A DNA stretch of 64,000 bases from Candidatus Omnitrophota bacterium (GTDB taxonomy: Bacteria; Omnitrophota; Gorgyraeia; Ghiorseimicrobiales; Ghiorseimicrobiaceae). The notes beneath the pieces are model-generated. The model was not told the DNA's origin. It searched no databases and saw only the letters and a list, made by a program, of their open reading frames with translations. The stretch spans positions 9,377 through 73,376 of the forward strand of contig JAUXSB010000012.1 in the NCBI GenBank assembly GCA_030681595.1, read 5' to 3'. How positions within the stretch are numbered: the first letter of the stretch is position 1; the number at the start of each line of letters is the position of its first letter. A program made the position numbers and the translations under genes. This document shows, in pieces, positions 5,792 to 56,387 of the stretch.

Positions 5792-6618
5792 TTATCCCTC
5801 TCTGCCTGTGCCTGAAGAAGTAAATTTGTGGCATCTGCCCTTATCGCATTGCCTTTATCTCGTTCTAACTGAGCATCTATACGTTTCTGCAGGGCCTGCT
5901 GAAGTAATTGTTGTTCAAGTGCCCGATACTTAACTTCTTCATTCAGATAGTAATCCCGTTGGCCTATCCAGTAATCCCTTTGACTAGAATAACTAGAACA
6001 GTCGCAATAACCGCAACCATTCATACAAGTAGCGTATAAACTCGCCCAGTAATTGGCTTCACTATTTGCGTTGTTTGCCTCCGCTGCGTAATAATCTGCT
6101 TGTGCTCCATACACAGCTGCCTGTTGCTCTAATAGGTATGCGTCTAAATCTAACAGCGCCGCGTTATAATCATATTTGGCAGCATCTATGTTCATTTGGC
6201 TAACCTGCGCCTCCAAAGCTGTGGCGGCCGGGCAAGGATCAGCCGCTCCACCTCCTCCGTCGCCTCTGCCGCCCCCTGTGCCTGAGCCAGGAGTATAAGT
6301 TCCGGGTGAGGGGAAATTTTTTCCTTTTAACACCCAATCTTCATTTAACTGCCTGCGTGCGTATACCGGCCACTTCCCCGGAGCAGTATTACTTCCCGCG
6401 TCCAGCCGCGAAGCAACAAACGGGGGTTCCTTCTCCACAAGTTCATTGTTATACCAGACCCCGATACGCACTGCTCCAGCAATAAAGAAAATAAGCGCTA
6501 CTAAAGCAAGGGCCATTTCTAAAGTTACCTGCCCGCCAATGCTTTGTGGCGTGGCCTGCCCGCGCCTGCAGGTTGCTCTTTTGTAATCTAAATCTTTTAA
6601 CTTATAATTCATAACCAC
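5770..6618 (-). CDS. TadE-like pseudopilin (282 aa) with a Gly-rich segment and an Ala/Gln/Tyr-rich coiled-coil-like C-terminus
   Basis: TadE-like N-terminus GGQVTLEMALALVALIFFIAG, followed by GTGGGRGDGGGG and then repeated AA/QQ/YY motifs. Confidence 0.6.
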   Translation of the reverse strand: MVMNYKLKDLDYKRATCRRGQATPQSIGGQVTLEMALALVALIFFIAGAVRIGVWYNNELVEKEPPFVASRLDAGSNTAPGKWPVYARRQLNEDWVLKGKNFPSPGTYTPGSGTGGGRGDGGGGAADPCPAATALEAQVSQMNIDAAKYDYNAALLDLDAYLLEQQAAVYGAQADYYAAEANNANSEANYWASLYATCMNGCGYCDCSSYSSQRDYWIGQRDYYLNEEVKYRALEQQLLQQALQKRIDAQLERDKGNAIRADATNLLLQAQAERDKCAAQQY

Positions 6619-6624
6619 CCATTA

Positions 6625-7212
6625 TTAATGTAACGTTGCCCAGGTTCTTCCTTTGGTTATCGATGTACCTGCGGCTGACTGCCTGTATCTGCCATCCGTA
6701 TCTAATCCTTGGGTATAGGTAAAAACCGAGCCGTCTTCTGCTAAAAGCCGGGTAGTAATTGTATCTCCCAGCGTTGCTTGACGATTGGTACTGCTCTGGA
6801 CATTACTCTCTGTCTTTATGTCCGTAGAATTATAAGCCGTATTGGCATCTGTTTCTACATTCCATATTTTTTTATCATTAGGGATTGTGAACAGATCTTC
6901 ATTTATCTGATAGAAAGTGAATTCGTTCGGCTCGCCAAAAGACCAAAGCACGCTTGCGCTAGCACTTACGCTTTGCCTATTACCCTGCTTAAAACCGCCG
7001 AATAAATTGGGGCCCCTATAATTTTTAATAATCGTATAGCTCACACTTCCGTTGTTATCGTATGCCTTTTGTAGCGCCATACGGAATGCCTGCTGCTGTA
7101 GGGTCGTCTGCTCCGTCATATTATTGGCAAAAGAAATTAAAAGCCCTAAAGCAACCATAACCATAGAGCCGAATACCGCCAACTCTGTAGCCGCCTGCCC
7201 CTTTTTTTTCAT
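6625..7212 (-). CDS. TadE/TadF-like pseudopilin (195 aa)
   Basis: MKKKGQAATELAVFGSMVMVALGLLISF matches the TadE-like N-terminal domain. Confidence 0.65.
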   Translation of the reverse strand: MKKKGQAATELAVFGSMVMVALGLLISFANNMTEQTTLQQQAFRMALQKAYDNNGSVSYTIIKNYRGPNLFGGFKQGNRQSVSASASVLWSFGEPNEFTFYQINEDLFTIPNDKKIWNVETDANTAYNSTDIKTESNVQSSTNRQATLGDTITTRLLAEDGSVFTYTQGLDTDGRYRQSAAGTSITKGRTWATLH

Positions 7213-43423: not shown

Positions 43424-44932
43424 TTACCACCAGTTTTCTCTCATCCATCTGTCTGCGCGGCTTAAGGCACTGTCGTCGGGCTGCCCCCTTACGCAGTTTA
43501 CTATTGCCATCGCATCTTCTCCCATACCTTTTATTGTAGCGCAACCGGAAAAAAATCCCGCGCTACAGATTAACAGCGAAAGCCACAGTAAACACTTAAA
43601 CCCTGCCTGCCCGGCATTCTTCCATAATTCTTTAGCCATGGTCAGCCTTTCTCTTGTCTTTTCTTTACCCAATATTGCGATGGTTTCAAACAACCCCGGC
43701 CCGATGGTTTTTCCGGATAGAGCAATCCTTACCGGATGCACGAGCTCACCTACCTTTATGCCTAATTCATTAACCAATCCGCGAAACTCTTCCTCAATGG
43801 CCGCGTGGTTAAAATCCGTGATTTTCTCAAAACGTTCTATCAAAAAGCCAAATTCTTTAGATAAATTACGCTCCAACAGTTTTTTCCTGGTTTCTTCTTC
43901 AAATTTTACTTCCCCTAAAAATATAAAATCCGACCAACTGACAAAATCCTCCAGGGTAGAGATACGCCCCTGAAATAATTTTACCACAGCCGATATTTCT
44001 TCTCTATTAAAATTTTCTTTTTTGATATAGCCTGCTTCTATTAAACGAGGAATTAAAAGCTCTACCAAGTAAACGGAATCTGCTTTTTTAATATACTGAG
44101 AATTAAGCCAATTTAATTTATCCATATCAAAAATAGCGGCAGTCTTATTGATATTTTTAATCTCAAATTTTTTAATTATTTCTTCTATGTTTACCACTTC
44201 CTGATTTCCTCCGGGCGACCAGCCTAAGAGCAAAAAATAGTTTGTCAGCGCCTCCGGCAAATAGCCCATTTTGCGGTAGTCACTAATTGCGGTAGCCCCC
44301 GTCCTTTTAGAAAGCCGGCCCCCGTCTTTTCCTAAAATTAACGGCAGGTGCGCAAAAAAAGGCACCTTGAACCCTAATGCCGCATATAATACCGTCTGTT
44401 TAGGAGTATTGGAGATATGGTCGTCTCCGCGTAAAACATGGGTTATGCCCAGCAAAGCATCGTCCACCACACAAGCGAAATTGTAAGTCGGGCTTTTATC
44501 TTCTTTGATCAAAACCTGATCTTTAATCAGTTCGGAGTCAAATTCAATTTCCCCGCGGATAATGTCGTTTATCTTTATTTTCTGCGGTTCCACCTTAAAA
44601 ATTAATGCGCCGTTTTCCGCCGTATAGGCCTTGCCTTCTTTAAGGAGCTTTTCGGCATATTGACGGTAAATATCGAAACGCTGGCTTTGGTAATAAAGCT
44701 CATCCCAATTCATCTTAAGCCATGCCAGACTGTCTAAAATTTCATCAAGATATTCTTTTTTGGAGCGTTCCAAATCCGTATCTTCAATGCGCAGGATAAA
44801 TTTTCCCCGCGCATGCTTAGCATACAGCCAGTTAAATAAGGCCGTGCGCGCCCCGCCTATATGTAAAAACCCCGTCGGACTAGGAGCAAATCTTACCTTT
44901 ACATTACTTTCCATAAGCCATCCCTCTCTCAA
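43424..44932 (-). CDS. gltX: Glutamyl-tRNA synthetase with an unusual C-terminal extension of about 60 aa
   Basis: VKVRFAPSPTGFLHIGGARTALFNWLYAKH (HIGH motif) and the KMSKS region. The extra tail ...GFKCLLWLSLLICSAGFFSGCATIKG resembles a lipoprotein signal peptide. Confidence 0.9.
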   Translation of the reverse strand: MREGWLMESNVKVRFAPSPTGFLHIGGARTALFNWLYAKHARGKFILRIEDTDLERSKKEYLDEILDSLAWLKMNWDELYYQSQRFDIYRQYAEKLLKEGKAYTAENGALIFKVEPQKIKINDIIRGEIEFDSELIKDQVLIKEDKSPTYNFACVVDDALLGITHVLRGDDHISNTPKQTVLYAALGFKVPFFAHLPLILGKDGGRLSKRTGATAISDYRKMGYLPEALTNYFLLLGWSPGGNQEVVNIEEIIKKFEIKNINKTAAIFDMDKLNWLNSQYIKKADSVYLVELLIPRLIEAGYIKKENFNREEISAVVKLFQGRISTLEDFVSWSDFIFLGEVKFEEETRKKLLERNLSKEFGFLIERFEKITDFNHAAIEEEFRGLVNELGIKVGELVHPVRIALSGKTIGPGLFETIAILGKEKTRERLTMAKELWKNAGQAGFKCLLWLSLLICSAGFFSGCATIKGMGEDAMAIVNCVRGQPDDSALSRADRWMRENWW

Positions 44933-45440
44933 ATGCTTTTTTATTGACTGCGATTATCTCCCGGCTTAAGCCTTCCAGCATCTTAGCTAAAACTACATCT
45001 GTCTGTTTAGCGGAGGCGATTTTCTTATATCCCAAGTATGCCCCGAGGGCTACAGTGTTAGCGCATTTCACATTACCTGTTTCTTGCGCAATAGCGGTAA
45101 AAGGGATTTCGCTTACCTGAAGGTCGTTTCTTTTTGGTTTTATATTTATCAGCGATTTATTCAAAAATAAAGCACCGCCTTTTTTAAGGCGTCCTTCAAA
45201 TTTAACCAATGACGGCGCATTCATTACTATCAAGGCGTCTACCTTGTCTATCAACGGAGAATAAATTTCTTCATCCGAAATAATTACCATGCAATGGGCG
45301 GTACCACCTCTTACCTCCGCACCGTAAGCCGGCAGATAGGTGGTAAACCTACCTGCCTCAACGGCAAGATTAGATAAAAACTTGCTCATAACCATAATTC
45401 CCTGTCCGCCGGATCCGGCAATAATAATTTTCTCAGTCAT
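44904..45440 (-). CDS. 2-oxoacid:ferredoxin oxidoreductase, gamma subunit
   Basis: MTEKIIIAGSGGQGIMVMSKFL... Confidence 0.85.
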   Translation of the reverse strand: MTEKIIIAGSGGQGIMVMSKFLSNLAVEAGRFTTYLPAYGAEVRGGTAHCMVIISDEEIYSPLIDKVDALIVMNAPSLVKFEGRLKKGGALFLNKSLINIKPKRNDLQVSEIPFTAIAQETGNVKCANTVALGAYLGYKKIASAKQTDVVLAKMLEGLSREIIAVNKKAFERGMAYGK

Positions 45441-45485
45441 TTAAATGAGCGCGTAATCCCGGAGCTTCGGGATTATTTGCGCGAA

Positions 45486-46214
45486 TTACTTTATTTTCCC
45501 CAACGGAAACTCTTTTGTCATTTCTTCTCTCACCCACTTAACCGCGGCTGTGGGCTTCATCCCTAAATACGTCGGACAGGCAGATAAAATTTCCACCAAA
45601 GAAAAACCTTTACCTTCTATCTGATTGATAAAGGCCTGTTTTATCGCTCTTTTTGCCGCTAAAACCTTTACCGGGGAATCAGTGCTTACGCGCTCAACAT
45701 AATAAACTCCGCTAAGCTGAGCCAGTAATTCGCTGATTTTCAAAGGATATCCTGCCGATTTAGCATCCCGCCCAAATGGAGTAGTGGCGGTTTTTTGGTT
45801 TAAAAGTGTCGTCGGCGCCATCTGGCCGCCAGTCATGCCGTAGACCGCGTTATTAATAAATACGGTGGTTAAATTCTCGCCTCTGTTTGCCGCGTGTATT
45901 GTCTCGGCACACCCGATAGCCACTAAGTCTCCGTCGCCCTGATAAGTAAAAACGATTGCTTCAGGCCGGACCCTTTTTATGCCGGTTGCCACTGCCAAAG
46001 CCCTTCCGTGTGCCGCCTCACAGCAGTCAAAATCCCAATAATCATAAGCAATCACCGCGCACCCTATAGGGGCTACGCCTATAATTCTCTCCCGAATATC
46101 CAGCTCATCGACAACCTCAGAAATAAGCCGGTGCGCTATGCCGTGGCCGCAACCCGAGCAATAATGCGTGGGAATATCGCGTAATGATTTAGGACGGCCG
46201 AATATTTTATCCAT
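45486..46214 (-). CDS. 2-oxoacid:ferredoxin oxidoreductase, beta (TPP-binding) subunit
   Basis: HYCSGCGHGIAHRL...GDGDLVAIG. Confidence 0.85.
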   Translation of the reverse strand: MDKIFGRPKSLRDIPTHYCSGCGHGIAHRLISEVVDELDIRERIIGVAPIGCAVIAYDYWDFDCCEAAHGRALAVATGIKRVRPEAIVFTYQGDGDLVAIGCAETIHAANRGENLTTVFINNAVYGMTGGQMAPTTLLNQKTATTPFGRDAKSAGYPLKISELLAQLSGVYYVERVSTDSPVKVLAAKRAIKQAFINQIEGKGFSLVEILSACPTYLGMKPTAAVKWVREEMTKEFPLGKIK

Positions 46215-46290
46215 CTAAAGTTATAAATTATGAATTATAAATGAGAAGTTGTTTTAAAAACTTATAACTTATCACTTATAACTTCTAGCC
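46211..46290. repeat. Rep-D gene-junction element, copy 1 (contains AAGTTATAA/TTATAACTT inverted repeats); overlaps the last 7 codons and stop of the alpha-subunit gene and abuts the beta-subunit start
   Basis: Aligned by eye with the copies at 47655 and 50021. Confidence 0.7.
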
Positions 46291-47452
46291 TTTTTATAAT
46301 CTCTTCTTCCGTTGGTACCCCTCCGCCGGCACGGCCGAGAAATTCTACCTTTGCCTTCCCATTAACCGCTAATCTTACATCTTCCACCATCTGGCCATAA
46401 GACATTTCAACTACTAAGAAATATTTCACTCTGCCTAATCTGTGTTTTAAAATCTGTGTAATCTGTGTTTCGGGAAATGGCCAAAGCGTGATCGGCCGAA
46501 TTAATCCGACTTTTATATTTTTTGCCTTTAGGGTTTTAATCGCTCCTTTGGCAATACGCGCCATTATGCCGTAAGCAACAATAATTATCTCTGCCTCATC
46601 GATACCAACACTTTCACACCTCTGTTCATCCGCTAAAATCTGCTTATATTTTCCCTGCAAGTGCTGATTAAGTTTTTCCGTATCTCCTAGGCACATCCGA
46701 AACGAAGCAACAAGATTAGGCAATCTATCCTTACAGCCAGTCACCGCCCATTTTTTTTCAGAAGTCAGACAACAGATGCCAGATAACAGATTTTTTCTGT
46801 CTTCTGGTATGACAATTGGCTCCATCATCTGACCTGACATCCCGTCGGATAAAATCATTACCGGATTACGGTATTTATCAGCTAAATCAAAGGCAAACAT
46901 GGTCAAATCAAACGCCTCCTGCGCGCTAGATGGCGCAAGCACAATATTATGATAATCGCCGTGTCCGCCGCCTTTTACCGCTTGAAAATAATCTGACTGC
47001 GCCGGCCAGATATTGCCTAATCCCGGGCCCGCACGCATAACATTTACAATTACAGCGGGCAGTTCCGCTCCGGCAATATAAGAAATACCTTCCTGTTTAA
47101 GGCTGATACCCGGGCTTGACGAGGAAGTCATTGCGCGCGCGCCCGCGGCAGAGGCTCCCATTACCATGCTTATCGCGGCCAACTCCGATTCTGACTGGAT
47201 AAATACCCCGCCTATACCAGGCATTCTTTTTGCCATATATGCCGGTATTTCATTCTGCGGCGTAATGGGGTATCCCGCATAAAAACGGCACCCTGCCTGT
47301 ACTGCCGCCTCGGCAATTGCTTCATTACCTGAAATTAATATCTTCTGGTTTCTGGTTTTCCCGAATGCAGTTACTTTGTAAGATGATCTTCGGGATCCTG
47401 ATGTTTCTCTGTGTAGTATTTCTACTTTTGGGACTAGTTTCTGGTTTCTCAT
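46262..47452 (-). CDS. 2-oxoacid:ferredoxin oxidoreductase, alpha subunit
   Basis: GNEAIAEAAVQAGCRFYAGYPITPQNEI. The C-terminal EVISDKL is encoded by the Rep-D element. Confidence 0.85.
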   Translation of the reverse strand: MRNQKLVPKVEILHRETSGSRRSSYKVTAFGKTRNQKILISGNEAIAEAAVQAGCRFYAGYPITPQNEIPAYMAKRMPGIGGVFIQSESELAAISMVMGASAAGARAMTSSSSPGISLKQEGISYIAGAELPAVIVNVMRAGPGLGNIWPAQSDYFQAVKGGGHGDYHNIVLAPSSAQEAFDLTMFAFDLADKYRNPVMILSDGMSGQMMEPIVIPEDRKNLLSGICCLTSEKKWAVTGCKDRLPNLVASFRMCLGDTEKLNQHLQGKYKQILADEQRCESVGIDEAEIIIVAYGIMARIAKGAIKTLKAKNIKVGLIRPITLWPFPETQITQILKHRLGRVKYFLVVEMSYGQMVEDVRLAVNGKAKVEFLGRAGGGVPTEEEIIKRLEVISDKL

Positions 47453-54032: not shown

Positions 54033-54608
54033 TTAGGCGCTGATTACTTGTTCAACCGGATAATCATGCGGGCTTTGCGGCAGGTCTTCGACGATTTGGC
54101 ATTTAAAGGCAAGGCCGACTGTACGGGTTTTTTCTCTTTTAGTCTCAAGAAGTCTGTCGTAATAGCCCTTACCGCGGCCCAGGCGTTTTCCGCCAGAGCT
54201 AAAGGCTACCCCCGGAACCACTATTAAATCTATTTTCTCTATGGAAACGGGCCTGAGATACTCGGCCTTTGGTTGTTTTATGCCGTAAGGGCCGATTTCC
54301 AATTCCGAGTCAACTCCTGAAACCAAAGATATGGCCATCTTGCGATTATTGTCTTTAAGTCTCGGTACTGCGACCTTCTTGCCTAATTTAATTGCCTCTT
54401 TTATCATATTTAAAGTGTCTACCTCGAAGCCACATGATATATAAAACATTATTACTTGCGCCTGTTTAAAAGCAGAAAGGCTAAAAAGCTTCTTTCGTAT
54501 CTTTCTGCTTCTTTCTGTTCTCTCTTCCTCCTTTTGTGTTTTTAACTTAAGTAGCATTTTGCGGCGTAGCTCTTGTTTTGCCTGTACTAACTTCTGGTCG
54601 TTACCCAT
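54033..54608 (-). CDS. 5-formyltetrahydrofolate cyclo-ligase
   Basis: VAVPRL...GVAFSSGGKRLGRGKGYYDRLL. Confidence 0.8.
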   Translation of the reverse strand: MGNDQKLVQAKQELRRKMLLKLKTQKEEERTERSRKIRKKLFSLSAFKQAQVIMFYISCGFEVDTLNMIKEAIKLGKKVAVPRLKDNNRKMAISLVSGVDSELEIGPYGIKQPKAEYLRPVSIEKIDLIVVPGVAFSSGGKRLGRGKGYYDRLLETKREKTRTVGLAFKCQIVEDLPQSPHDYPVEQVISA

Positions 54609-56165
54609 CTAATAATGCTCGTCATGTTCATGCACATCCGGCTTTGGCGCAAATGCGCTGGGATCCTTACCGATTTTTTTATAATAATCGGCTAAGGCCG
54701 CCCTCAGTGCCTGCTCGGCTAAAACCGAACAATGCATTTTTATCGGCGGAAGCCCTCCCAGCGCCTCCGCAACGGCCCTATTGGAAATCGTAAGGGCCTC
54801 TTCTATAGACTTACCTTTGACTAAATCCGTAACCATGGAACTGGTGGCAACTGCCGCGCCACAGCCAAAGGTTTTAAATTTAACATCTATTATTATACCA
54901 TCTTTTATCTTTATGTACAATTTCATTACGTCGCCGCAGTTATGCAAAGTTACGGCATTAGACACATAGGAATGCGCGCCTTCTACTTCTAAATTATAAA
55001 CTAACCCGTCATATTTAAGGGGGGTTATTTTCCTGATAGTCGTATAATAAAAGTTATCATCCACCCAAGATTTATGCCTAATTTGCTGGTTTTCCCTTAT
55101 CTTCAAATCTAACCCCATAATTTTTATTATTTTTTCTAAAGAATTATCTTCTTGAATATAAAACAAGAAGCTCTTTTTATGGATTCCGTAAGCCTTGCCT
55201 TGAGAAAAATTGCTTATAATCTTCTGCCTTAATAAGAGCAGCCTTAATTGATAGGCAAGATTCCGGGATATAGTCACATACTTTGCCCGCTGACGTTTTA
55301 AATCTATACATCCGTCGCCTCTGAACATGCCGCATAATAAAGCCTTTTGTTTCCCCAACGGCAACTCCAGCATCCATTGAGGCAGATGCTTATTTATCGC
55401 GCCTTTACCGAATTGAGCCTCAAAAAATCTTGCCAAGCGCGCTGAATAAAACGGCAAATCTAGCGCTGTGCCGCGCCTATTGTGCATCAACTTGCCCGGC
55501 GTAACATTAAAAACTTTCTTCATAAGCGCTAATACATCATCTATATAGGATTTTTCCTTTGAATTAAATACAAACCCTATCGTTCCTTTGCAATCATCTG
55601 TGCGCACATACCCCTCAGCTATGTAATAACCTACGAGGCGGCAGAAATTATTATTTATTTTTATCTCTTCGGGCAATGCCCTGCTTTTAAAATCCCATTT
55701 TGGTATATCTATCCCAAATTTAATATTCTTTTGGTCGTTATCCTGACGAGGAATGGGGTACAAAATTATATCGCCCTTTCTTAATTCTTCCGCCGCGTAC
55801 CAATCAGGAGTTTGCCCCGTATGCAGCTTAAATTTATCCCGCCTGCCTGCCTTTAAAGCCAAAATCTTATGCTCCGGAGTCAGCTCTGAAATACCAAGAT
55901 TGTTCACGGTAAAACGATAAATTTCTCCTTTGTACGGCCGACTGTGAATAATCTCAATCTCATGGTACTTCCCGTCGTGCCCCAAAACCCGCCTACCCTT
56001 TAAAAGGCTGCTAATTTCTTCTACATTTGGATTGGTAAAAATCAGGGTGTCAGGAGTGACACATATCGGATTACCCACGGTCCCTACGCCATCGGCATCT
56101 GGGATTTCGCCCACGTTATGCGGGTTCTGGAAATGCTGCATTACTTTTTCGCTATATTGCTCCAT
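54609..56165 (-). CDS. iscU: IscU/NifU-type Fe-S cluster scaffold protein interrupted by a 375-aa intein
   Basis: Exteins MEQYSEKVMQHFQNPHNVGE...GNPI and CGDVMKLYIKIKDGIIIDVKFKTFGCGAAVATSSMVTDLVKGKS...MHCSVLAEQAL align colinearly with canonical IscU (GAPACGDVMKL...). Confidence 0.85.
   Translation of the reverse strand: MEQYSEKVMQHFQNPHNVGEIPDADGVGTVGNPICVTPDTLIFTNPNVEEISSLLKGRRVLGHDGKYHEIEIIHSRPYKGEIYRFTVNNLGISELTPEHKILALKAGRRDKFKLHTGQTPDWYAAEELRKGDIILYPIPRQDNDQKNIKFGIDIPKWDFKSRALPEEIKINNNFCRLVGYYIAEGYVRTDDCKGTIGFVFNSKEKSYIDDVLALMKKVFNVTPGKLMHNRRGTALDLPFYSARLARFFEAQFGKGAINKHLPQWMLELPLGKQKALLCGMFRGDGCIDLKRQRAKYVTISRNLAYQLRLLLLRQKIISNFSQGKAYGIHKKSFLFYIQEDNSLEKIIKIMGLDLKIRENQQIRHKSWVDDNFYYTTIRKITPLKYDGLVYNLEVEGAHSYVSNAVTLHNCGDVMKLYIKIKDGIIIDVKFKTFGCGAAVATSSMVTDLVKGKSIEEALTISNRAVAEALGGLPPIKMHCSVLAEQALRAALADYYKKIGKDPSAFAPKPDVHEHDEHY
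54939..56063 (-). other. Intein (375 aa) with a LAGLIDADG homing-endonuclease domain, inserted immediately before the conserved cluster-ligand Cys of IscU
   Basis: Starts with Cys (CVTPDTLIF). Block B TPEHKILAL. LAGLIDADG-like motifs LVGYYIAEGY and LLCGMFRGDGCI. Ends VEGAHSYVSNAVTLHN followed by a +1 Cys. Confidence 0.8.
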
Positions 56166-56387
56166 TTTCCTCTTCCTCCAAACTATACAATATAGATTAT
56201 AAGACTATTTTAGTATAATATGCTGATGTTTCAAGAGTTTTTTCAAGTAAAATTTTCCGGCTGGCGTTTAAATTTTGCTTGATGCCCCGCCACAAAGCGT
56301 TGGCGGGCAGGCTGCAAATGCTTTTGCGGCGCAAAGATTAAATGATCTGTTAACGAATAAAAACCCATATTTAAGGCTTGCTCCTCT

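What the first reader, a model, noticed from the sequence alone, without database searches (positions are those of the whole stretch)
54939..56063. LAGLIDADG intein inserted at the cluster-ligand cysteine of an IscU/NifU Fe-S scaffold
- The 518-aa ORF is a canonical IscU of about 143 aa split by a 375-aa insertion.
- The N-extein ends ...VGNPI and the C-extein begins CGDVMKL. Together they recreate the universally conserved GAPACGDVMKL motif.
- The insert begins with Cys, carries a TxxH block B and two LAGLIDADG-like motifs (LVGYYIAEGY, LLCGMFRGDGCI), and ends ...VTLHN followed by a +1 Cys. That is the full set of class-1 intein splicing signatures.
- The +1 nucleophile is itself the Fe-S cluster-ligating cysteine, so scaffold function strictly depends on splicing.
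- This is a potentially redox- or metal-sensitive conditional protein-splicing switch, in an insertion site that is not among the commonly cited intein hosts.
Basis: partly seen in the sequence, partly recalled or inferred. Interest (0 to 1): 0.75.

Follow-up and report, generated by a model that had tools for sequence, protein, structure and literature searches.

The report
Mobile intein splitting an iron-sulfur scaffold
The gene for a small protein on which iron-sulfur clusters are built (IscU/NifU) is interrupted, exactly in front of one of its cluster-binding cysteines, by a real self-splicing, self-spreading protein element (an intein); this is a new host site for a well-known kind of element and a good test case for regulated protein splicing.

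Summary
Window 54609-56165 (- strand) is one continuous 518-aa ORF: 34-aa N-extein, 375-aa intein (54939-56063), 109-aa C-extein.

- **Host.** The spliced exteins align without gaps to solved IscU/NifU scaffolds. The +1 Cys falls on the first cluster-ligand cysteine.
- **Intein.** It has Cys1, TPEH (block B), two LAGLIDADG motifs with their acidic residues, and His-Asn/Cys+1. All are kept in 120-121 of 121 homologues that share as little as 52% identity with the query. The AlphaFold model (pLDDT 93) matches endonuclease-bearing inteins such as TliVMA, PI-SceI and PI-PkoII.
- **Distribution.** The same site is occupied in Omnitrophota, CPR bacteria, Elusimicrobia, Planctomycetia and several archaeal phyla.
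- **Mobility.** An intein-free orthologue (89-91% extein identity) sits in a largely syntenic locus. In one pair of Omnitrophota genomes the intein's synonymous divergence (0.10) is 3-14 times lower than that of its flanks, which indicates recent transfer.

Best reading: a splicing-competent, mobile, selfish class-1 intein at a host site I found described in no paper. The redox or metal "switch" idea is plausible by analogy with the M. tuberculosis SufB intein, but it is untested and nothing specific in the sequence supports it. Verdict: new member of a known kind, moderate interest.

The parts
54609..56165 (-). Precursor gene: intein-containing nifU/iscU, 518 codons plus TAG stop
   Evidence: One continuous ORF. 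Pfam finds NifU_N split in two stretches, plus Intein_splicing and LAGLIDADG_3. All 120 homologues listed have the same architecture.
56064..56165 (-). N-extein, aa 1-34 (MEQYSEKVMQHFQNPHNVGEIPDADGVGTVGNPI)
   Evidence: Matches NifU_N profile positions 1-28 and residues 2-32 of IscU 4eb5. G31, N32 and P33 are invariant in 121 sequences.
54939..56063 (-). Intein, 375 aa (precursor aa 35-409), class-1 signature
   Evidence: AlphaFold model pLDDT 93.3. Best Foldseek PDB match is the TliVMA intein 7qsu, E 1.4e-22, TM 0.73.
55704..56063 (-). N-terminal splicing (Hint) region, intein about 1-120, starting with the Cys1 codon at 56063-56061
   Evidence: Cys1 in 120 of 121 sequences. NCBIfam intein_Nterm matches 35-102 at 20.7 bits, below its 24.5-bit cut-off. 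Beta-strand-rich in the model.
55869..55880 (-). Block B, T-P-E-H (intein 62-65)
   Evidence: Thr62 and His65 invariant in 121 of 121 sequences and in all 75 inteins of the wider clade.
55074..55667 (-). LAGLIDADG homing-endonuclease domain, intein about 133-330
   Evidence: Pfam LAGLIDADG_3, E 2e-13. Profile match to PI-PkoII 2cw7 over 133-305. Structural matches to I-DmoI and I-SceI. dN/dS 0.26.
55608..55637 (-). LAGLIDADG motif 1, LVGYYIAEGY (catalytic Glu150 in intein numbering)
   Evidence: Gly145 121 of 121, Glu150 120 of 121, Gly151 121 of 121.
55305..55340 (-). LAGLIDADG motif 2, LLCGMFRGDGCI (catalytic Asp250)
   Evidence: Gly249 121 of 121, Asp250 120 of 121, Gly251 121 of 121.
54939..55073 (-). 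C-terminal splicing region (blocks F and G): VYNLEVEGAHSYVSNAVTLHN. Asn is at block F position 4; it ends in His374-Asn375 (54944-54939)
   Evidence: His374 and Asn375 121 of 121; Asn357 121 of 121. NCBIfam intein_Cterm above its cut-off.
54936..54938 (-). +1 Cys codon (TGC). It is both the C-extein nucleophile and the first cluster-ligand cysteine of the scaffold (precursor C410, spliced C35)
   Evidence: Cys 121 of 121. Aligns with Cys33 of 4eb5 chain C, equivalent to E. coli IscU Cys37 (PMC2854127).
54612..54938 (-). C-extein, aa 410-518. It carries D412, C435, H478, C479 and the LPPIK motif
   Evidence: NifU_N profile 29-125. Ungapped alignment to 4eb5 and 7c8m. Residue positions.
56175..56234 (-). 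Likely expression signals: promoter-like TTGAAA-16-TAAAAT (56234-56207) and GGAGG ribosome-binding site (56179-56175)
   Evidence: Consensus scan; the number of sites is not above the shuffle expectation, so this is weak. RBS read from the sequence.
54033..54608 (-). Downstream 5-formyltetrahydrofolate cyclo-ligase gene. Its ATG directly follows the nifU stop, so the two are probably co-transcribed
   Evidence: Pfam 5-FTHF_cyc-lig, E 5.6e-52. Same gene order in the intein-free and intein-containing orthologous loci.

Best explanation
This is a genuine class-1 intein carrying an intact LAGLIDADG homing endonuclease. It is inserted in the nifU/iscU gene of a Candidatus Omnitrophota bacterium, between Ile34 and the first cluster-ligand cysteine.

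**How it most likely works**
1. The gene is translated as a 518-aa precursor.
2. Cys1 makes the N-S acyl shift, helped by block B Thr62/His65.
3. The +1 Cys attacks the thioester (trans-thioesterification).
4. Asn375 cyclises, helped by His374, and releases the intein.
5. An S-N shift leaves a normal peptide bond. The product is a 143-aa IscU with the motif VGNPI-CGDVMKL, whose Cys35, Asp37, Cys60, His103 and Cys104 can then build a [2Fe-2S] cluster.
6. The free intein acts as a site-specific DNA endonuclease. It cuts intein-free nifU alleles at ...AAYCCNATH|TGYGGNGAY..., and repair copies the intein in (homing).

**What is shown**
- The element's architecture.
- Conservation of all catalytic residues.
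- The fold.
- The exact reconstitution of IscU on removal of the insert.
- The patchy distribution of the intein.
- The much younger synonymous age of the intein relative to its flanks in one genome pair.

**What is inferred**
- That splicing and DNA cleavage actually occur.
- That the precursor is inactive as a scaffold.

The element is best seen as selfish. It persists because it sits in a site the host cannot change.
For: - **Frame and domains.** One continuous ORF, with split NifU_N plus Intein_splicing and LAGLIDADG_3 and intein_Cterm above its cut-off.
- **Host reconstitution.** The spliced extein gives an ungapped E 1e-53 match to IscU 4eb5, with all ligand residues in register.
- **Catalytic residues.** In 121 homologues sharing as little as 52% identity with the query: Cys1 120/121; Thr62, His65, His374, Asn375 and Cys+1 121/121; Glu150 and Asp250 120/121.
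- **Fold.** Model pLDDT 93.3. The top PDB matches are all endonuclease-bearing inteins, and the endonuclease domain also matches I-DmoI and I-SceI. The profile matches PI-PkoII at E 2.4e-16.
- **Selection.** Purifying selection acts on the intein, endonuclease included (dN/dS 0.24-0.26).
- **Empty site.** The intein-free orthologue P0121 has 89-91% extein identity. It lies in the same nifU-MTHFS-rny-ymdB-xseA-xseB-dxs order, with rarA also upstream. The intein-containing P0002 has the same downstream order.
- **Patchiness.** At least 21 presence/absence changes on a 258-tip extein tree.
- **Breadth.** The same site is occupied in many bacterial and archaeal phyla and in at least 10 distinct 50%-identity clusters.
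- **Recent transfer.** For L007 versus L008, intein dS is 0.10. N-extein is 1.38, C-extein 0.30 and neighbouring genes 0.46-1.05 (Fisher p 8e-23 against neighbours).
Against: - No experiment: neither splicing nor DNA cleavage has been seen for any member.
- Block F position 4 is Asn instead of the usual Asp. That it is usually Asp is from my memory of the Mtu RecA intein, where Asp422 helps coordinate the steps. Asn is invariant in this clade, so it is evidently tolerated, but the kinetics could be unusual.
- Intein and extein distances are well correlated across loci (Spearman 0.73). Much of the history is therefore co-divergence rather than frequent transfer.
- The clear transfer signal comes from a single genome pair, not from the window's own lineage.
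- The extein tree rests on 124 columns and neighbour-joining, so the count of 21 changes is rough.
Confidence: 0.82

Rival explanations
1. It is the same intein, but retained or co-opted as a conditional switch. Under oxidising conditions Cys1 and Cys+1 form a disulfide. Alternatively Zn2+, Fe2+ or a nascent cluster is bound by Cys1, Cys+1 and the other IscU ligands. Either way splicing stalls, and production of the oxygen-labile scaffold is gated after translation in these mostly anaerobic organisms.
For: - Both nucleophiles are cysteines and are invariant.
- The M. tuberculosis SufB intein, also in an Fe-S assembly protein, is blocked by a Cys1-Cys+1 disulfide under oxidative stress. The DnaB intein 1 is reversibly blocked by H2O2 and by zinc (review PMC8529194; PMC7360933 listed).
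- IscU itself binds zinc through these ligands (PMC4243993 title and abstract).
- The nearest intein clades also sit at redox or metal cysteines: TrxR CAT|C, PorB WCPG|CGD and a NuoI-like CxxCxxC|xxxCP motif.
Against: - There is no conserved extra cysteine in the intein: C141 38/121, C158 87/121, C244 100/121, C252 19/121.
- The endonuclease active site is intact, intein-free orthologues are common, and recent transfer is seen. These are the marks of a selfish element in a homing cycle, not of a fixed regulatory module.
- Cys1/Cys+1 redox sensitivity in vitro would be a generic property of the chemistry and not proof of function.
Confidence: 0.14
2. It is a dead insertion. The intein no longer splices, the nifU gene is in effect inactivated, and the organism relies on another Fe-S assembly system.
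For: Only part of the genome is visible. No cysteine desulfurase or second scaffold lies within the 64-kb window, so dispensability cannot be excluded directly.
Against: - All splicing residues are intact here and across 121 homologues.
- The exteins are under very strong purifying selection (C-extein dN/dS 0.014; mean pairwise identity 0.73-0.77). That would not hold for an inactivated gene.
- In seven related loci the intein-containing nifU lies directly after a gene with cysteine-desulfurase sequence motifs; three of these were confirmed as class-V aminotransferases by Pfam.
Confidence: 0.03
3. It is an assembly or annotation artefact: two genes, or a chimeric contig, joined into one frame.
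For: The source is a metagenome-assembled genome. The NCBI gene call for the identical protein starts at an internal GTG (P0001, 489 aa).
Against: The same architecture, with intein lengths of 371-377 aa, recurs in more than 120 independent protein clusters from many assemblies and sources and in 25 species-representative genomes. The junctions are exact to the residue.
Confidence: 0.01

Closest known systems
Mycobacterium tuberculosis SufB intein (Fe-S cluster assembly, SUF system)
   Same: - A class-1 intein with Cys1 and Cys+1.
- It interrupts an essential Fe-S cluster biogenesis protein.
- The host protein needs splicing to work.
- It has known sensitivity to oxidative stress through a Cys1-Cys+1 disulfide (PMC8529194).
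   Different: - The host is SufB of the SUF complex, not the IscU/NifU scaffold.
- As far as I know, its insertion point is not a cluster-ligand cysteine.
- It is known from actinobacteria, whereas this one is spread over uncultivated anaerobic bacteria and archaea.
- No detectable close sequence relationship was seen: no SufB hit appeared among the relatives.
Endonuclease-bearing archaeal and yeast inteins with solved structures: TliVMA (7qsu/7qss), PI-SceI (1vde), PI-PkoII (2cw7), PI-PfuI (1dq3)
   Same: The same two-part architecture: a Hint splicing domain split by a LAGLIDADG endonuclease. Foldseek E 1e-22 to 3e-15, TM up to 0.73. Profile match to PI-PkoII at E 2.4e-16.
   Different: - Only 10-20% sequence identity.
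- The hosts are V-ATPase, DNA polymerase and ribonucleotide reductase.
- This intein is compact at 375 aa, and the block F position usually held by Asp is Asn.
IscU/NifU-type scaffolds with solved structures: A. fulgidus IscU (4eb5), Methanothrix NifU-domain protein (7c8m), E. coli IscU (2l4x/3lvl)
   Same: The spliced extein matches at E 1e-53 to 5e-41, ungapped to 4eb5 and 7c8m. It keeps three Cys, Asp and His in register and an LPPIK motif.
   Different: None of the solved or characterised scaffolds carries an intein. In the window the gene is not next to a cysteine desulfurase, whereas it is in seven related loci.
Sister inteins found here in other hosts: 2-oxoacid:ferredoxin oxidoreductase beta, thioredoxin reductase, NuoI-like ferredoxin, TIGR00375 protein
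   Same: - 29-39% identity to the NifU inteins.
- The same length class.
- Cys1 and Cys+1.
- Asn at block F position 4.
- Intact LAGLIDADG residues.
- The PorB site shares the |CGD C-extein start.
   Different: Different host genes and homing sites. The NifU-site inteins are closer to each other (39-53%) than to any other group.

Membership tests
Class-1 intein (Hint-fold protein-splicing element) | In-frame insertion whose removal restores a conserved host protein without gap or overlap | tested here: met
   The spliced extein aligns without gaps to IscU 4eb5 (E 1e-53) across the junction NPI-CGD. The intein-free orthologue P0121 reads GNPICGDVMKL.
Class-1 intein (Hint-fold protein-splicing element) | Nucleophile (Cys/Ser) at intein position 1 | tested here: met
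   Cys1, 120 of 121 homologues.
Class-1 intein (Hint-fold protein-splicing element) | Block B Thr-x-x-His | tested here: met
   TPEH at intein 62-65. Thr and His are 121 of 121.
Class-1 intein (Hint-fold protein-splicing element) | C-terminal His-Asn followed by Cys/Ser/Thr at +1 | tested here: met
   His374, Asn375 and Cys+1 are all 121 of 121. NCBIfam intein_Cterm scores 28.3 bits against a 15.6-bit cut-off.
Class-1 intein (Hint-fold protein-splicing element) | Hint fold | tested here: met
   Pfam Intein_splicing scores 42.7 bits against a 35.8-bit cut-off. The AlphaFold model (pLDDT 93.3) matches solved inteins with TM up to 0.73. This rests on a predicted structure, not a solved one.
Class-1 intein (Hint-fold protein-splicing element) | Block F position 4 Asp (common but not universal) | tested here: not met
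   Asn357 in 121 of 121 sequences, and in 74 of 75 inteins of the wider clade. That this column corresponds to Mtu RecA Asp422 rests on my own recollection of that sequence.
Class-1 intein (Hint-fold protein-splicing element) | Autocatalytic protein splicing | not testable with these tools
   This needs expression and SDS-PAGE or mass spectrometry.
Class-3 intein | Trp-Cys-Thr triplet with Cys at block F position 4 and no position-1 nucleophile | tested here: not met
   Cys1 is present and block F position 4 is Asn.
LAGLIDADG homing endonuclease (two-motif, monomeric) | Two LAGLIDADG helices, each ending in a catalytic acidic residue | tested here: met
   LVGYYIAEGY (Glu150, 120/121) and LLCGMFRGDGCI (Asp250, 120/121). 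Pfam LAGLIDADG_3, E 2e-13, in 2 stretches.
LAGLIDADG homing endonuclease (two-motif, monomeric) | alpha-beta-beta-alpha-beta-beta-alpha fold, repeated twice | tested here: met
   The model's secondary structure over residues 138-315. Foldseek matches to I-DmoI, I-SceI and I-Tsp061I at E about 1e-7.
LAGLIDADG homing endonuclease (two-motif, monomeric) | Site-specific cleavage of the intein-free allele, and homing | tested here: inconclusive
   Cleavage is not testable here. The evidence is indirect: empty orthologous sites exist, at least 21 gain/loss events, and intein dS of 0.10 against 0.30-1.38 in the flanks in one genome pair.
IscU/NifU N-terminal-domain Fe-S scaffold (Pfam NifU_N; NCBIfam TIGR03419 NifU_clost) | Profile match above the curated cut-off | tested here: met
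   Pfam NifU_N scores 151 bits against a 22-bit cut-off. For the precursor, TIGR03419 scores 187.3 bits against 187.9, just under because the match is split. Intein-free orthologues are named NifU by NCBI.
IscU/NifU N-terminal-domain Fe-S scaffold (Pfam NifU_N; NCBIfam TIGR03419 NifU_clost) | Three conserved Cys plus the Asp and His of the cluster site | tested here: met
   Spliced C35, D37, C60, H103 and C104 are in register with 4eb5. The roles of E. coli Cys37, Cys63, Cys106 and Asp39 are described in PMC2854127.
IscU/NifU N-terminal-domain Fe-S scaffold (Pfam NifU_N; NCBIfam TIGR03419 NifU_clost) | Partner cysteine desulfurase encoded alongside | tested here: not met
   None lies in the 64-kb window. 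A gene with cysteine-desulfurase sequence motifs lies directly upstream in L005, L009, L010, L012, L014, L015 and L020. L009, L012 and L015 were confirmed as class-V aminotransferases by Pfam. Adjacency is typical, not obligatory.
Conditional (redox- or metal-gated) protein splicing, as in Mtu SufB or Msm DnaBi1 | Both splice-junction nucleophiles are Cys and so able to form a disulfide or bind metal | tested here: met
   Cys1 and Cys+1. This is necessary but not sufficient.
Conditional (redox- or metal-gated) protein splicing, as in Mtu SufB or Msm DnaBi1 | Splicing shown to respond reversibly to oxidants or metals | not testable with these tools
   This needs in vitro splicing assays.

The most novel reading that the evidence does not exclude
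The IscU intein is more than a passenger. Its two nucleophiles are Cys1 and the scaffold's own ligand cysteine. Oxygen, zinc, iron or a nascent cluster could therefore arrest splicing, making production of mature scaffold a post-translational sensor of redox or metal status in anaerobes.

More broadly, this whole intein clade has Asn at block F position 4 and Cys1/Cys+1. It sits at the cysteines of IscU, PorB/KorB (a natural C-P-G-C1 arrangement), thioredoxin reductase CxxC and NuoI-type ferredoxin motifs. It may be a lineage specialised in redox or metal cysteine sites, moving between them through shared half-sites such as |TGYGGNGAY.
Probability: 0.15. Interest if true: 0.7.

Novelty: new member of a known kind. 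Interest (0 to 1): 0.45.

Why it matters
Inteins are best known in replication and repair proteins. The M. tuberculosis SufB intein is the textbook case of one that links protein splicing to Fe-S metabolism and stress.

An intein placed exactly at a cluster-ligand cysteine of the central IscU/NifU scaffold adds a second, simpler system: a 143-aa host in which one thiol serves both as the splicing nucleophile and later as a metal ligand. That makes "does cofactor chemistry feed back on splicing?" directly testable.

The family is abundant in Omnitrophota, CPR bacteria and several archaeal phyla. It also shows a clean signature of recent transfer. It is therefore useful as a marker of gene flow among uncultivated anaerobes, and as a source of new compact Cys/Cys inteins and meganucleases.

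In practice, gene callers truncate these genes or name them without noting the intein. This can distort pathway inference for Fe-S biogenesis in metagenome-assembled genomes.

Tried and rejected
- **Frameshift or two genes.** Rejected. There is a single ORF, and the architecture recurs in more than 120 clusters.
- **Second scaffold, second intein or cysteine desulfurase in the window.** tblastn with the intein and the extein finds only the locus itself. Pfam on 20 ORFs and a motif scan found no desulfurase. Whether the genome has a back-up system stays open.
- **Foreign base composition.** The intein has GC 0.40, the exteins 0.47 and the window 0.43. The difference is too small to argue for anything.
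- **Viral vector.** A scan of IMG/VR with the intein profile gave only one 21%-identity relative. There is no support for phage carriage.
- **Extra conserved regulatory cysteine in the intein.** None is invariant.
- **Literature.** Searches combined intein with IscU, NifU, Omnitrophica, iron-sulfur scaffold, or CPR/DPANN. I also searched the text of the Novikova 2016 survey. No description of this insertion turned up. That paper's supplements are not held, and the SufB intein paper itself is not held. The library lacks most subscription journals and InBase, so absence is not proof.
- **Class-3 intein or a non-splicing Hint domain.** Rejected on residues.
- **Pure vertical inheritance.** Rejected by the dS contrast. 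However, the intein-extein distance correlation of 0.73 shows that transfers are not frequent.
Full report
**1. The observation**

The region holds a single uninterrupted ORF, 54609..56165 on the - strand. It is 518 aa with an ATG start, preceded by GGAGG at 56179-56175.

- N-extein: aa 1-34 (56165-56064).
- Intein: aa 35-409 (56063-54939; 375 aa).
- +1 Cys codon TGC: 54938-54936.
- C-extein: aa 410-518.

All quoted motifs are there: VGNPI|CVTPDT, TPEH, LVGYYIAEGY, LLCGMFRGDGCI and VTLHN|CGDVMKL.

Profile searches put this far beyond chance:
- Pfam NifU_N, E 2.3e-44, in two stretches.
- Pfam LAGLIDADG_3, E 2e-13.
- Pfam Intein_splicing, 42.7 bits against a 35.8-bit cut-off.
- NCBIfam intein_Cterm above its cut-off.
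- NCBIfam TIGR03419 (NifU_clost), 187.3 bits for the split precursor against a cut-off of 187.9.

**2. The host protein**

With the insert removed, the 143-aa product aligns without a single gap to solved scaffolds:
- A. fulgidus IscU 4eb5 chain C, E 1e-53.
- Methanothrix NifU-domain protein 7c8m, E 7e-48.
- E. coli and human IscU/ISCU, E about 1e-41.

The junction NPI-CGDVM lies over NPV-CGDLM of 4eb5. The +1 Cys (spliced C35, precursor C410) falls on chain Cys33. D37, C60, H103 and C104 are also in register.

In E. coli numbering this is Cys37. It is one of the three conserved cysteines, surface-exposed, and proposed as the first sulfur acceptor from IscS. Asp39 lies between the three cysteines (PMC2854127).

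That the precursor cannot act as a scaffold is a reasonable inference, because a 375-aa domain is inserted at the IscS-facing loop. It is not shown.

**3. The insert**

A search of 5.8 billion proteins returned 734 hits. The best 120 are all NifU proteins with the same insert, at 52-100% identity to the query. Intein lengths are 371-377 aa.

Conservation in the 121-sequence alignment:

| Residue | Kept in |
|---|---|
| Cys1 | 120/121 |
| Thr62, His65 (block B) | 121/121 |
| Glu150, Asp250 (the two LAGLIDADG acidic residues) | 120/121 each |
| His374, Asn375, Cys+1 | 121/121 |

The residue that aligns with the usual block F Asp is Asn357 in all 121 sequences. It is also Asn in 74 of 75 inteins of the wider clade. 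That this position is normally Asp is from my own memory of the Mtu RecA intein.

An AlphaFold model built on 61 sequences has mean pLDDT 93.3. Its best PDB matches are all endonuclease-bearing inteins:
- TliVMA 7qsu, E 1.4e-22, TM 0.73.
- PI-SceI.
- PI-PkoII.
- PhoVMA.
- PI-PfuI.
- Next come free LAGLIDADG enzymes (I-DmoI, I-SceI).

The sequence profile matches PI-PkoII at E 2.4e-16. The insert is therefore a class-1 intein with a LAGLIDADG endonuclease. The class-3 pattern is excluded.

**4. Surroundings and organism**

The identical protein is annotated in an NCBI Candidatus Omnitrophota MAG as "iron-sulfur cluster assembly scaffold protein". That annotation starts at the internal GTG of Val30 (489 aa, starting MGNPIC...), which cuts off the N-extein.

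The neighbours are housekeeping genes:
- Upstream: pheS, pheT, DUF2157, GDYXXLXY and rarA.
- Downstream: 5-formyl-THF cyclo-ligase, whose ATG directly follows the nifU stop, then rny, ymdB, xseA and dxs.

No cysteine desulfurase, second scaffold or second intein lies in the window.

In seven related loci a gene with cysteine-desulfurase sequence motifs lies directly upstream of the intein-containing nifU. Pfam confirmed three of them (L009, L012, L015) as class-V aminotransferases. This looks like the simple two-gene nifS-nifU arrangement.

**5. Distribution**

A scan of one genome per species (GTDB) with an intein-only profile found 179 relatives. Among the best 80, 25 have the intein in NifU at exactly this site.

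- Bacteria: Omnitrophota, Nealsonbacteria, Gribaldobacteria, Elusimicrobia, WOR-1, Planctomycetia and one MAG labelled Gammaproteobacteria.
- Archaea: Bathyarchaeia, Thermoplasmatota, Nitrososphaerota, Altiarchaeota, Nanoarchaeia and MAGs labelled only "archaeon".

The archaeal exteins are of the archaeal type (CGDLMTIYIKV, as in 4eb5), so this is not a binning error.

An exhaustive HMMER search of 1.84 billion cluster representatives gave 7749 relatives of the intein at E <= 1e-3, and 274 at E <= 1e-30. At least ten of the best hits are distinct NifU/IscU clusters with the intein at this site. They include classical GSPA|CGDVM IscU types.

**6. Is it mobile?**

Three lines of evidence bear on this.

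*(a) Empty sites.*
- Searching with the spliced extein returns 120 intein-free NifU proteins at 73-89% identity, many from Omnitrophota.
- The closest is P0121 (141 aa, 89-91% identity). It lies in the same nifU-MTHFS-rny-ymdB-xseA-xseB-dxs order, with rarA also upstream.
- The intein-containing P0002 has the same downstream order.
- The empty site reads GGAAATCCCATA|TGCGGGGACGTAATG.

*(b) Patchiness.* On a neighbour-joining tree of 258 exteins, intein presence changes at least 21 times, against about 86 for shuffled labels. Presence is clustered but repeatedly gained or lost. The tree is rough, resting on 124 columns.

*(c) Age contrast.* This compares two Omnitrophota genomes, L007 and L008.

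| Region | Synonymous divergence (dS) |
|---|---|
| Intein | 0.10 (22 synonymous differences over 235 sites) |
| N-extein | 1.38 |
| C-extein | 0.30 |
| Upstream genes | 0.80-1.05 |
| Downstream genes | 0.46-0.56 |

- Nucleotide identity is 93-100% inside the intein and mostly 79-89% in the flanking genes, apart from a few conserved stretches. It declines gradually on the C-extein side.
- Fisher p is 8e-23 against neighbouring genes and 9e-7 against the exteins.
- The intein is thus much younger than its chromosomal surroundings in this pair. That is what homing with co-conversion of flanks predicts.
- dN/dS is 0.24 for the intein as a whole and 0.26 for the endonuclease part, so the endonuclease is under purifying selection.

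Across phyla, intein and extein distances correlate (Spearman 0.73), with a few mismatches. For example, the nearest intein to that of Thermoplasmatota, and to that of Nealsonbacteria, comes from Omnitrophota or a close relative, although their nearest exteins are archaeal. The history is thus mostly long residence with occasional transfer.

No relative was found on viral contigs.

**7. Mechanism**

The best-supported reading is the standard class-1 pathway followed by homing, as laid out in the best explanation.

- Shown: the architecture, the conserved catalytic residues, the predicted fold, exact reconstitution of IscU, the patchy distribution, and recent transfer in one genome pair.
- Inferred: that splicing and DNA cleavage occur, and that the precursor is inactive as a scaffold.

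*The conditional-switch idea.* Cys1/Cys+1 inteins are known to be arrested by disulfide formation (Mtu SufB) and by zinc or peroxide (Msm DnaB intein 1) (PMC8529194). In vitro sensitivity here is therefore quite likely.

Nothing in the sequences points to an evolved sensor, however:
- No further cysteine is invariant.
- The endonuclease is intact.
- Intein-free orthologues are common.
- The element still moves.

I put an adaptive switch at about 0.15.

**8. Relatives in other hosts (seen in passing)**

The next-closest inteins (29-39% identity) all have Cys1 and Cys+1 and sit at cysteines of redox or metal motifs:
- 2-oxoacid:ferredoxin oxidoreductase beta subunit, at WCPG|CGDF.
- Thioredoxin reductase, at CAT|CDG.
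- A NuoI/FpoI-like ferredoxin, before the third Cys of a CxxCxxCxxxCP motif.
- TIGR00375-family proteins, at PAH|CWTPWF.

The NifU and PorB sites share the C-extein start CGD.

**9. Comparison with what is known, and novelty**

The element is an ordinary kind of thing: a class-1 LAGLIDADG intein. The host and site appear to be undescribed.
- Full-text searches linking inteins with IscU, NifU, Omnitrophica, iron-sulfur scaffolds or CPR/DPANN found nothing relevant.
- The main text of the 2016 intein survey does not mention them.
- Among the NCBIfam models that matched, several are dedicated intein-containing models (Tes, GyrA, RtcB, RecA), but none is for NifU.
- Source annotations name these proteins NifU or scaffold without noting the intein.

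There are two caveats. The paper library lacks most subscription journals and InBase. And the domain combination is visible in precomputed Pfam annotations, so it is "known to databases".

The closest functional analogue is the Mtu SufB intein. It shares the pathway theme and the Cys/Cys chemistry but differs in host protein, insertion site and taxa.

**10. Verdict**

- Novelty: new member of a known kind.
- Interest 0.45. It would not surprise an intein specialist in principle. It is, however, a clean, widespread and experimentally attractive case, with direct evidence of recent mobility.

Noticed in passing
window 56078-56165 (aa 1-29 of the ORF); protein P0001: The NCBI gene call for the identical protein is 489 aa and starts MGNPIC..., at the internal GTG of Val30. 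The true N-extein is therefore cut off, and the product name does not mention the intein. No dedicated NCBIfam model for intein-containing NifU appeared among the matches.
   Followed up: partly
L022-L029, L032, L039 (match at about 6001-7100 in most); representatives P0245, P0261, P0263: Sister inteins (about 36% identity) split the beta subunit of 2-oxoacid:ferredoxin oxidoreductase at WCPG|CGDF. The native junction thus reads C-P-G-Cys1, resembling the engineered CPGC 'redox trap' that I recall from the intein literature. In L022, L026 and L027 a NifU/SufU-like gene lies about 3-3.5 kb upstream.
   Followed up: partly
L051 (6001-7185); representatives P0280, P0301, P0313, P0326, P0354, P0355, P0363, P0380: Related inteins sit inside the redox-active CxxC motif of thioredoxin reductase (CAT|CDG), so the +1 Cys is the second active-site cysteine. 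The host of L051 was confirmed as TIGR01292 above its cut-off.
   Followed up: partly
L036, L037, L040, L043, L045, L047, L049, L056, L064, L066 (Bathyarchaeota soil MAGs): A related intein interrupts a small NuoI/FpoI-like 2x[4Fe-4S] ferredoxin subunit, before the third Cys of a CxxCxxCxxxCP motif (RCCFCHF|CTDYCP). These ten inteins average 73% pairwise identity.
   Followed up: partly
L033 and about 30 further loci (DPANN archaea, CPR bacteria); L071, L075: The largest related group splits TIGR00375-family proteins at PAH|CWTPWF. I believe these are PHP-domain, EndoQ-like proteins, but that is from memory. L071 and L075 carry what looks like a second long insertion further downstream in the same gene.
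   Followed up: no
L024 (6001-7098 and 7192-8265): This oxidoreductase beta-subunit gene contains two inteins about 30 codons apart. The second is 26% identical to the query intein.
   Followed up: no
proteins P0243 (3308 aa), P0247 (3003 aa), P0292 (4920 aa), P0246, P0249: These very long proteins have 6-9 separate stretches matching this intein, and so may carry many inteins. Their hosts were not identified.
   Followed up: no
intein position 357 (window 55093-55095) and the same column in 75 related inteins: The block F position usually held by Asp is Asn throughout this clade (121 of 121 NifU inteins; 74 of 75 across five host families). Its effect on splicing chemistry is unknown.
   Followed up: partly
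L081 1791-4892 and L083 1754-4855, compared with window 56166-56387: In the intein-free orthologous locus a 1033-aa EF-G-like GTPase gene (923 aa in L082) lies between rarA and nifU. The window has only a 222-nt spacer there. At 1033 aa the gene is long for an EF-G and may itself carry an insertion.
   Followed up: no
window 44904-47452 (- strand): The window has its own 2-oxoacid:ferredoxin oxidoreductase genes. The alpha subunit (46262-47452) was confirmed by Pfam. The adjacent 243-aa ORF (45486-46214), by position the probable beta subunit though not profile-checked, is intein-free and reads YCSGCGHG at the position where the sister inteins insert.
   Followed up: partly
L070 (2536-3540), Chloroflexi MAG: This is an apparently decayed copy of the oxidoreductase-site intein. 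The match stops at intein residue 345 and the frame runs into unrelated sequence. It may be an intein in the process of being lost.
   Followed up: no
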